From NCBI RefSeq assembly GCF_009914755.1, contig NC_060928.1: DNA of 64,000 bases; one strand, 5' to 3'. Below, piece after piece: positions 24,201 to 25,884 of this stretch. The notes below the pieces were generated by a model. The model ran no database searches and had not been told where the DNA came from. It was given only the letters and a program-made list of their open reading frames with translations. The stretch comes from the human T2T-CHM13v2.0 reference genome, Homo sapiens. The translations under genes and the position numbers were made by a program. Position 1 is the stretch's first letter; each line of letters begins with the position of its first letter.

Positions 24201-25034
24201 ATAATGCCTGCACTCAAGGACATTGAAAATATTGAACAATATTGCCACTCTGCAGGCAATATTTGCTCAGAAACTGTGTTCAAATATCTTTTTAAGAAAG
24301 ATTTACCTCATTTCAGATTAACAGATTATTAATAGAATAAAAACAAATATCTCTATTTTGTGACATGCATCTTTTCCTTCCTAATTCTACTTGATGTAAA
24401 TTTCTATTTAGACTTTTTAAAAGTACAACTTGCCTGAATTACAAGGCAATCTGTGAAACAAGTTAAGTAGTAGGCATTTAGAAGATAAATATTTTCTAAG
24501 ACTGAGAAATGTAAGCAATGTTGCAAATATTCAGAAAAGGAAATTATTGTGATTTAGACAAAATATTTTCAAATGAAACAAAGTAACTGTAATTGTACTT
24601 AAAACATATCTGTTTGGATAAAAATAAAAGGAATTTCTACAGTCAGAAAAACAATGTCAAGGAACATGAAATGAAGCTAATATAATAAGTGTGAAACTAC
24701 ATAGAGAAAATGAAGATATTCTATTTGAGAATGTTTAGATAAATAAGAATAGATCACACCACTGCCTCATTGTTGACAGAATGATGCTTTCTTATACTAG
24801 AAACTCTTTATATACAATTAAATTATCTCTTGTTCTGGAGACAGCCACATTTACAATAAGCAAATAACAATAAATTTATTATTCACACATACAAACACAA
24901 AATCATTCATCCTTTTCTTTATTCTCTTGCTTTCCAAAAACTCTATTGTCAACACTTAAATCATTGTGACATTGATTGACATTGATATGTACCAAGTTAG
25001 AGAAAGTTAGAAAGAAAGATAGCATTTTAACAAG

Positions 25035-25762
25035 TTGTCTAAGAAATGGGCTTTTTTGTTTCTTATGCTGACAGTTGTATTCTAGCTCTGAGTCCTGTGA
25101 GAATGTGCTGGTGTGGCCAGTGAAATACAGTCTTTATATCAATTTAATAATGATACTTGATGAACTTGCTCAGAAACACCAAGAGGTAACTGTGCTTGTC
25201 ACCTTCAGCTTCCATCCTCATTGATTCCAACAATTTGCTGTTAAATTTGAGGTTTATCCCACATCTTTTACTGAGAATGAACTTGATTTCATTTTTATGA
25301 AATTGATCAAGATATGGACATACAAGTTTCCAAAGAGTACATTTTGGCATATGATTCAAAGATACAAAAAACACATATTATGAATGTTCTGATACTGTTC
25401 AAAAGCTCTGTGAGTATGCTGTTTTGAACAAGAAACTTATAAGGAACAACAAGATTCCAGAATTTATGTCATTCTTGCAGATGTCATTTCTCATTAGTGA
25501 GCTGCTATCTGAACAGCTTAATCTGTTAAACATTTGTTATACATTTGGTCTACTATCATCCATTTACAACTGGCAGTATGTACCAAGAACTCTGTGGAGG
25601 ACTTTCATTACCTCCTTCTGATGTAGCTGTTGTCATGTCAGAACTTAGTACCAAAATACATTTACAGAAAGATGAAAAATCTTTTGCATTTTCTTCATTT
25701 TAACTTTGCATTTGATAATTTTAACAAAAAGAAGTGTGATCAGTTTTACAGTGAAGTATTAG
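25035..25762 (+). pseudogene. Decayed UGT2 first exon (divergent UGT2B-like) with intact 5' splice donor
   Basis: TTG(for ATG)-[134 protein letters not shown]. Several frameshifts. Confidence 0.92.
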
Positions 25763-25884
25763 GTAAGTTAGTGGTTAATTTATTCCCTTTTCCCTCCAAT
25801 ATGTGGAAGGAAACTTTCCTTTCTTTGTGTCTGTTAGAGTGTGTTAATGAATTAAAATAGAAAATAACCTTTTTTGTTATTTGA

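What the first reader, a model, noticed from the sequence alone, without database searches (positions are those of the whole stretch)
24960..25768. Dead first exon 1.3 kb upstream of UGT2B10 keeps a perfect, in-phase donor and an in-frame ATG
Seen: the start codon is TTG and the body is frameshifted, but the donor AG|GTAAGT is consensus and in the same phase as the real exon 1. ATG 25672 opens [31 protein letters not shown] in frame with it. Splicing to exon 2 (29065) would encode a 319-aa protein with only the UDP-sugar-binding domain, TM helix and ER tail. Promoter homology is also visible (ttgattgac; tgtaccaagttagagaaag vs tgtatataagtatgagaaag). Established: truncated UGT isoforms can modulate full-length enzymes by oligomerisation. 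The peptide looks diverged from human 2B proteins and may belong to a lineage kept in other mammals (inference).
Basis: partly seen in the sequence, partly recalled or inferred. Interest (0 to 1): 0.7.

Follow-up and report, generated by a model that had tools for sequence, protein, structure and literature searches.

The report
Fossil exon of lost detox gene
Just upstream of the human drug-detoxifying gene UGT2B10 lies the broken first exon of a separate, ancient relative whose protein is predicted to be whole in pig and hedgehog; its seemingly preserved splice site and start codon are likely an inheritance and a chance mutation, not signs that it still works.

Summary
Window 25035-25762 is a dead UGT2B first exon with a phase-1 donor and an in-frame ATG (319 aa if spliced to 29065). 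Four more copies lie in the chr4 cluster. All five share the TTG start and nine frameshifts. The ATG is a GTG-to-ATG change in this copy alone, behind 17 upstream ATGs, and this copy's five own changes in those 30 codons all alter the protein. The donor is the family's common one, and AG|GT survives in 8 of 11 other dead first exons. The product would lack the N-terminal half that UGTs use to oligomerise. In trees the exon is no UGT2B17 copy: it groups (100/98; AU p 2e-8 against primate UGT2B) with predicted proteins of pig, hedgehog, tree shrew and elephant shrew, sister to all other placental UGT2B sampled. So it is a fossil of an unnamed lineage likely lost early in primates. A second, unannotated fossil at 8410-9189 is a UGT2C/2E first exon, a subfamily humans were said perhaps to lack. 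No RNA data could be tested.

The parts
24972..25034 (+). decayed proximal promoter and 5' leader, weakly like that of UGT2B10; TATA-like word altered
   Evidence: 50 of 2000 shuffles reach the score
25035..25762 (+). dead coding first exon of an unnamed placental UGT2B sister lineage (RefSeq LOC100422189, labelled UGT2B17 pseudogene); TTG start, 10 frameshifts
25046..25123 (+). first ATG after the expected start of transcription, strong context, 25-codon out-of-frame ORF; first of 17 upstream ATGs
25578..25703 (+). out-of-frame upstream ORF (a second ATG at 25635) that runs over ATG 25672
25672..25674 (+). in-frame ATG, a G-to-A change private to this copy at a valine codon
25760..25768 (+). 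phase-1 splice donor TAG|GTAAGT, the common UGT2B exon-1 donor, present in all five copies
25763..27029 (+). 1,267-base spacer with no exons 2-6 of the dead gene; from about 26,330 it matches the upstream DNA of other UGT2B genes; duplicated along with the relic
27030..27773 (+). UGT2B10 exon 1 (live), donor AG|GTAAGA
   Evidence: RefSeq table
29065..29213 (+). UGT2B10 exon 2, the acceptor the hypothetical isoform would use; holds its own in-frame ATG (280-aa frame)
8410..9189 (+). unannotated dead first exon of the UGT2C/UGT2E subfamily, part of the same duplicated block in 3 places (end approximate)

Best explanation
This is a broken first exon of a separate UGT2B lineage that likely died early in primate evolution, and its donor and in-frame ATG are likely incidental. 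Shown: it groups with predicted proteins of pig, hedgehog, tree shrew and elephant shrew, sister to all other placental UGT2B sampled; three of these also share their own type of exons 2-6. Inferred: the gene was a stand-alone gene; a deletion removed its exons 2-6 and left exon 1 next to the promoter of the UGT2B10-type gene; it lost its start codon and gathered nine frameshifts; then the block (dead exon, spacer, neighbouring exon 1) was copied to five places. After the last copying a G-to-A change made the ATG in this copy only. It most likely makes no protein; a rare transcript from its old promoter would be read from upstream ATGs and likely be degraded by nonsense-mediated decay.
For: Read through, the relic is 61-65% identical to 5 lineage proteins against 48-53% to 6 other UGT2B. 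Clade support 100/98 in 63 rows, 100/97 under a mixture model, with the read-through guided by human UGT2B17; joining it to 23 primate UGT2B rows is rejected, p-AU 2.2e-8. Exons 2-6 of pig, hedgehog and P0052 form their own clade, SH-aLRT 95. TTG and 9 frameshifts shared by 5 of 5 copies. ATG in 1 of 5 copies; this copy's own changes in the 30 codons are 5 amino-acid-changing and 0 silent, among them a Trp kept in all intact UGT2B exon 1s seen; one sister copy has two stops there. AG|GT kept in 8 of 11 other dead exon 1s, 3 of them also with in-frame Met. 17 upstream ATGs.
Against: No RNA data were seen, and papers that sequenced UGT2B10 transcripts were not held. Five changes in 30 codons give little power: the frame has 76 replacement and 14 silent sites, so 5:0 fits neutrality but proves little. 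The donor is a perfect match and the layout is UGT1A-like, so splicing is mechanically possible. The tree-shrew model's exons 2-6 fall outside the lineage clade. Rodent Ugt2b1 and named ruminant UGT2B were not in the trees. Lineage members are gene predictions under UGT2B17-type or generic names.
Confidence: 0.85

Rival explanations
1. The relic is a live alternative first exon that yields a 319-aa, catalytically dead UGT2B10 isoform which modulates full-length enzymes.
For: Perfect phase-1 donor, in-frame ATG with A at -3, 319-aa frame with the TM helix. Three AG sites with pyrimidine-rich leaders lie inside the relic, one (25626) made by a change private to this copy. Altered UGT isoforms modulate activity (PMC9609030).
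Against: ATG is copy-private; 17 upstream ATGs, two ORFs overlapping it; TATA-like word altered; no sign of constraint; oligomerisation maps to the N-terminal half, residues 183-200 in a UGT2B7 model, and the cited inhibitors lack the C-terminus instead (PMC5075577), whereas this product starts near residue 210.
Confidence: 0.03
2. The relic is dead as a coding exon but reused: as a weak non-coding first exon (giving decay-bound RNA, or the 280-aa frame from the exon-2 ATG) or as regulatory DNA for the UGT2B10-type promoter.
For: It travels with the neighbouring exon 1 in all 5 copies of the block; some promoter likeness remains; UGT2B genes use alternative promoters (titles and passages).
Against: Travelling together is what block duplication gives; relic and spacer diverge like neutral DNA (3-6% and 5-11%); RefSeq lists no exon or functional element here.
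Confidence: 0.1
3. It is a recent duplicate of a human UGT2B exon 1, such as UGT2B17 (the RefSeq label).
For: Among human paralogs its best DNA and protein matches are the UGT2B17/15 type, 68% DNA.
Against: Equidistant (65-68%) from all long human matches; AU test rejects grouping with primate UGT2B.
Confidence: 0.01
4. It is the human remnant of UGT2C1/UGT2E1.
For: That subfamily is kept in other mammals and said perhaps to be missing in humans (PMC9658400).
Against: Named UGT2C/2E proteins differ plainly from it; in the tree it sits in UGT2B, while the relic at 8410-9189 pairs with colugo UGT2C1-like, 100/100.
Confidence: 0.01

Closest known systems
UGT2B exon-1 pseudogenes and remnant fragments of the 4q13 cluster (RefSeq LOC100422189; remnants noted in PMC13416403 citing Riedy 2000)
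   Same: Dead first exon without its own exons 2-6, donor kept, copied by segmental duplication.
   Different: Most such remnants are copies of primate UGT2B genes; this one comes from a lineage older than the placental radiation and has no live human counterpart among the exon-1 matches found.
Predicted pig A0A8D1Y4P5 (527 aa) and hedgehog UGT2B17-like (530 aa), with tree shrew and elephant shrew models
   Same: Same lineage: shared diagnostic stretches in exon 1 and 61-65% identity; His and Asp at the catalytic positions (positions recalled) are kept in all five proteins.
   Different: Those have open frames and own exons 2-6; the human copy is broken and orphaned. None carries a lineage name.
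UGT1A, UGT2A1/2 and marsupial UGT2 variable first exons on shared exons
   Same: A first exon on the same strand, upstream of exons 2-6, with a phase-matched donor.
   Different: There each exon has a start codon, signal peptide and promoter; placental UGT2B are stand-alone genes (bioRxiv 2021.08.20.457063), and this lineage had its own exons 2-6.
Inhibitory truncated UGTs (UGT1A_i2, UGT1A1 Q331X)
   Same: Catalytically dead partial UGT.
   Different: They keep the N-terminal half and lose the C-terminus; the proposed product is the reverse.
UGT2C1/UGT2E1 (UGT2B-II)
   Same: Old placental UGT2 subfamily lost in humans; its fossil lies 16.6 kb upstream in the same block.
   Different: A different clade from the exon in the finding.

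Membership tests
UGT2B first exon (placental UGT2B clade) | UDPGT N-terminal domain homology | tested here: met
   Pfam PF00201, E 7.8e-13
UGT2B first exon (placental UGT2B clade) | Groups with placental UGT2B to the exclusion of UGT2A, UGT2C and marsupial UGT2 | tested here: met
   99/98, as sister to all other UGT2B sampled
Functional UGT2B gene | Start codon, open exon 1 and own exons 2-6 | tested here: not met
   TTG, 10 frameshifts, no downstream exons before 27030
UGT2B17 pseudogene (RefSeq label) | Descends from the UGT2B15/17 clade | tested here: not met
UGT2C/UGT2E | Groups with UGT2C1-like proteins | tested here: not met
   not met for 25035-25762; met for 8410-9189 (59% to colugo UGT2C1-like against 33-39% to UGT2B10, UGT2A3 and the pig protein; one reference protein in the tree)
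Alternative first exon on shared exons (UGT1A type) | Same strand, upstream, phase-matched donor | tested here: met
Alternative first exon on shared exons (UGT1A type) | First strong ATG opens the frame through the donor | tested here: not met
   17 ATGs come first
Alternative first exon on shared exons (UGT1A type) | Active promoter and spliced transcripts | not testable with these tools
   no RNA-seq or CAGE tool; the UGT2B10 splicing paper was not held
Alternative first exon on shared exons (UGT1A type) | Purifying selection on the coding part | tested here: inconclusive
   5 replacement to 0 silent changes in 30 codons, no sign of constraint but few events
Inhibitory truncated UGT isoform | Keeps the N-terminal oligomerisation region | tested here: not met
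   product would begin near residue 210; region defined in PMC5075577

The most novel reading that the evidence does not exclude
Upstream of UGT2B10 lie first exons of two lost placental subfamilies, and one has been re-recruited: two point changes private to this copy (an AG at 25626 and the ATG at 25672) turn the tail of the fossil into a new exon that splices onto UGT2B10 exon 2 and makes a 319-aa membrane-anchored isoform, a gene part reborn after tens of millions of years.
Probability: 0.04. Interest if true: 0.65.

Novelty: new member of a known kind. Interest (0 to 1): 0.32.

Why it matters
As an isoform source it most likely does not matter. As a fossil it corrects a label and shows a UGT2B lineage, as old as the placental radiation, that humans lost and that pig, hedgehog and tree shrew are predicted to keep. 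Pig and tree shrew are used as models of drug metabolism (general knowledge), so an enzyme with no human counterpart is worth naming and assaying. The UGT2C/2E fossil nearby shows that humans once had that subfamily too. If junction reads did turn up, it would be a case of a dead exon reborn through single-base changes at a nicotine-metabolising gene.

Tried and rejected
UGT2C/2E origin and UGT2B17 origin of the exon: rejected. Idea that the relic marks an old shared-exon layout: rejected, the lineage has its own exons 2-6. First protein search with the relic's longest frame found only 2 of 8 candidates, both read-throughs of the same broken sequence, not real proteins. The Atlas search gave only generic UDPGT clusters under 0.9. 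A search of the human genome with the hedgehog protein scored 81 of 210 candidates; I did not inspect each exon-2-6 hit, so lineage-type downstream exons elsewhere in the cluster are not excluded. Five lineage motifs searched in the carnivore supplement: three absent, two found only in unrelated rows; three more absent; rows are cut at 400 characters. Labriet 2018, and two other UGT transcriptome papers asked for by DOI, were not held. PMC2134963 mentions a possible human loss of Ugt2b1, but its table is not held, so I cannot say which pseudogene it means; rat Ugt2b1, seen by eye, lacks the lineage's motifs in the second half of exon 1. No structure or complex prediction was run: it could not decide whether the RNA exists.

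Full report
Observation. The sequence is as described. TTG stands at 25035 where UGT2B10 has its start codon, the donor is TAG|GTAAGT at 25762/25763 in phase 1, and ATG 25672 joined to exons 2-6 gives 319 residues. The exon is 67% identical to UGT2B10 exon 1. Likeness upstream covers about 60 bases and is weak: 50 of 2000 shuffles reach its score, and the next 500 bases score at chance, 166 of 200. The TATA-like word of UGT2B10 is altered in every copy of the relic (its role is recalled, not tested).

Five copies. A genome search gave 21 matches, of which 4 besides the window are full-length at 94-96%. Each lies about 2 kb before a UGT2B10-type exon 1, and the spacer was copied with it. The copies differ by 2.3-6.1%, roughly 10-30 million years at a recalled neutral rate near 1e-9 per site per year (inference). 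All 5 have the TTG and nine frameshifts at matching places, so the exon was dead before it was copied.

The ATG. The other 4 copies read GTG, and UGT2B10 has a valine codon there. In the 30 codons this copy has 5 changes of its own, all amino-acid-changing, one removing the Trp seen in all 7 other human UGT2B exon-1 frames printed; a sixth, silent difference is shared with copy L002. Copy L004 has two stops there. The numbers are small and fit neutrality without proving it. Seventeen ATGs lie between 24,990 and 25,672; the first (25046) has a strong context and closes after 25 codons, and two open frames run across 25672. A transcript from the old promoter would therefore not be expected to start at 25672 and would likely be a decay substrate (inference from standard scanning and NMD rules).

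The donor. AG|GTAAGT is also the donor of 4 of 6 intact human UGT2B exon 1s examined; UGT2B10 and one other have GTAAGA. Of 11 other broken exon-1 copies, 8 keep AG|GT, 1 has lost it, 1 is unclear and 1 did not align (broken status). Three of the 8 also have Met codons in frame with the donor. Simulated drift of 1.5-3% gives a new in-frame ATG with a kept donor in 3-5% of copies, 13-23% for at least one of five.

The proposed protein. It would start near residue 210, without signal peptide. The review PMC5075577 (passages) places oligomerisation in the N-terminal half, and its inhibitory examples lack the C-terminus. A C-terminal-only frame of 280 aa already follows if the annotated short exon 27030-27208 is joined to exons 2-6 (that pairing is my inference).

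Origin. The relic's longest frame retrieved 44 representatives, of which 8 unnamed fragments share its diagnostic stretches. All 8 fall in its clade and a control fragment does not; several look frameshifted, hinting at repeated loss (unverified). A profile of five of them plus the relic found 329 proteins among 7,992 scored, 120 listed; after one fused mouse model (left out), five stand apart at 224-245 bits against 202 or less: pig, elephant shrew, tree shrew, hedgehog and an unnamed contig protein. The relic read through is 61-65% identical to these and 48-53% to six other UGT2B. For the tree I chose 52 of the 120 listed hits, skipping splice-form duplicates, and 4 unnamed representatives; 6 were dropped because the exon-1 end was not recognised; 10 human exon 1s and 3 relic copies were added, read through with human UGT2B17 as guide. 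Relics and the five proteins form a clade (100/98), sister to the other 49 placental UGT2B rows; a mixture model on 32 rows agrees (100/97), and holding the relics with 23 primate rows is rejected (p-AU 2.2e-8). None of 16 non-human-genome primate proteins falls in the clade. In exons 2-6, pig, hedgehog and the contig protein group apart (SH-aLRT 95; 41 rows, 11 left out as too short), while the tree-shrew model does not. So the lineage was a stand-alone gene from before the placental radiation; its exons 2-6 are missing next to UGT2B10. The long stem to the relics (0.34 against 0.13-0.18 for intact members) suggests early loss in primates (inference).

A second fossil. A weak hit at 8503-8976 proved to be a UGT2C/2E first exon with no RefSeq row. 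A sister copy retrieved colugo UGT2C1-like as best of 2 hits among 46 candidates; the window copy is 59% identical to it against 33-39% to UGT2B10, UGT2A3 and the pig protein and pairs with it at 100/100 (guided by that protein, one reference only; cat, horse, cow and pig UGT2C/2E in the supplement agree by eye). Copies occur at five places in the cluster. PMC9658400 says humans might lack UGT2E (passage).

Literature seen. PMC9658400: passages, supplement parts 1 and 13 and motif searches. Passages of PMC13416403, PMC7188667, PMC11605732, PMC9609030, PMC5075577, PMC2134963. Labriet 2018 was seen only as a reference title. Ten searches showed no description of this exon, of LOC100422189 (0 papers) or of a human UGT2C fossil; the library lacks most subscription journals.

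Verdict. A real, annotated pseudo-exon with a misleading label. The isoform reading is unlikely (about 3%) but untested on RNA. The lasting result is evolutionary: fossils of two lost UGT2 lineages upstream of UGT2B10.

Noticed in passing
window 8410-9189 (+): Unannotated dead first exon of the UGT2C1/UGT2E1 subfamily; related copies at chr4 72.218, 72.594, 72.676 and 72.703 Mb. With the UGT2A3-like pseudogene before the window it gives the order 2A-like, 2C, lost 2B lineage, 2B10-type gene, repeated near 72.69-72.73 Mb.
   Followed up: yes
window 45249-45383 (-): Isolated UGT2 exon-3 relic on the opposite strand, with an intact acceptor-like AG and no RefSeq row.
   Followed up: partly
window 26095-26317: Tandem duplication of about 112 bases (87% alike) in the spacer, shared with copy L002 but not with L003-L005; marks these two as sister blocks.
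   Followed up: partly
window 25626: An A-to-G change private to this copy creates an AG after a pyrimidine-rich run, a possible cryptic acceptor for a 136-base exon ending at the donor.
   Followed up: partly
L030/L034 (chr4 72,724,302-72,725,019) and L023 (72,743,676): Two complete-looking UGT2B10/11-type genes are broken in this assembly, one by a frameshift in exon 1 and one by ATA for the start codon. One might be expected to be UGT2B28; a deletion haplotype could explain it (recalled, unchecked).
   Followed up: no
P0004-P0006, P0009, P0023, P0031, P0034, P0036: Eight unnamed fragments of the same lost lineage, several apparently frameshifted, suggesting repeated independent loss in mammals.
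   Followed up: partly
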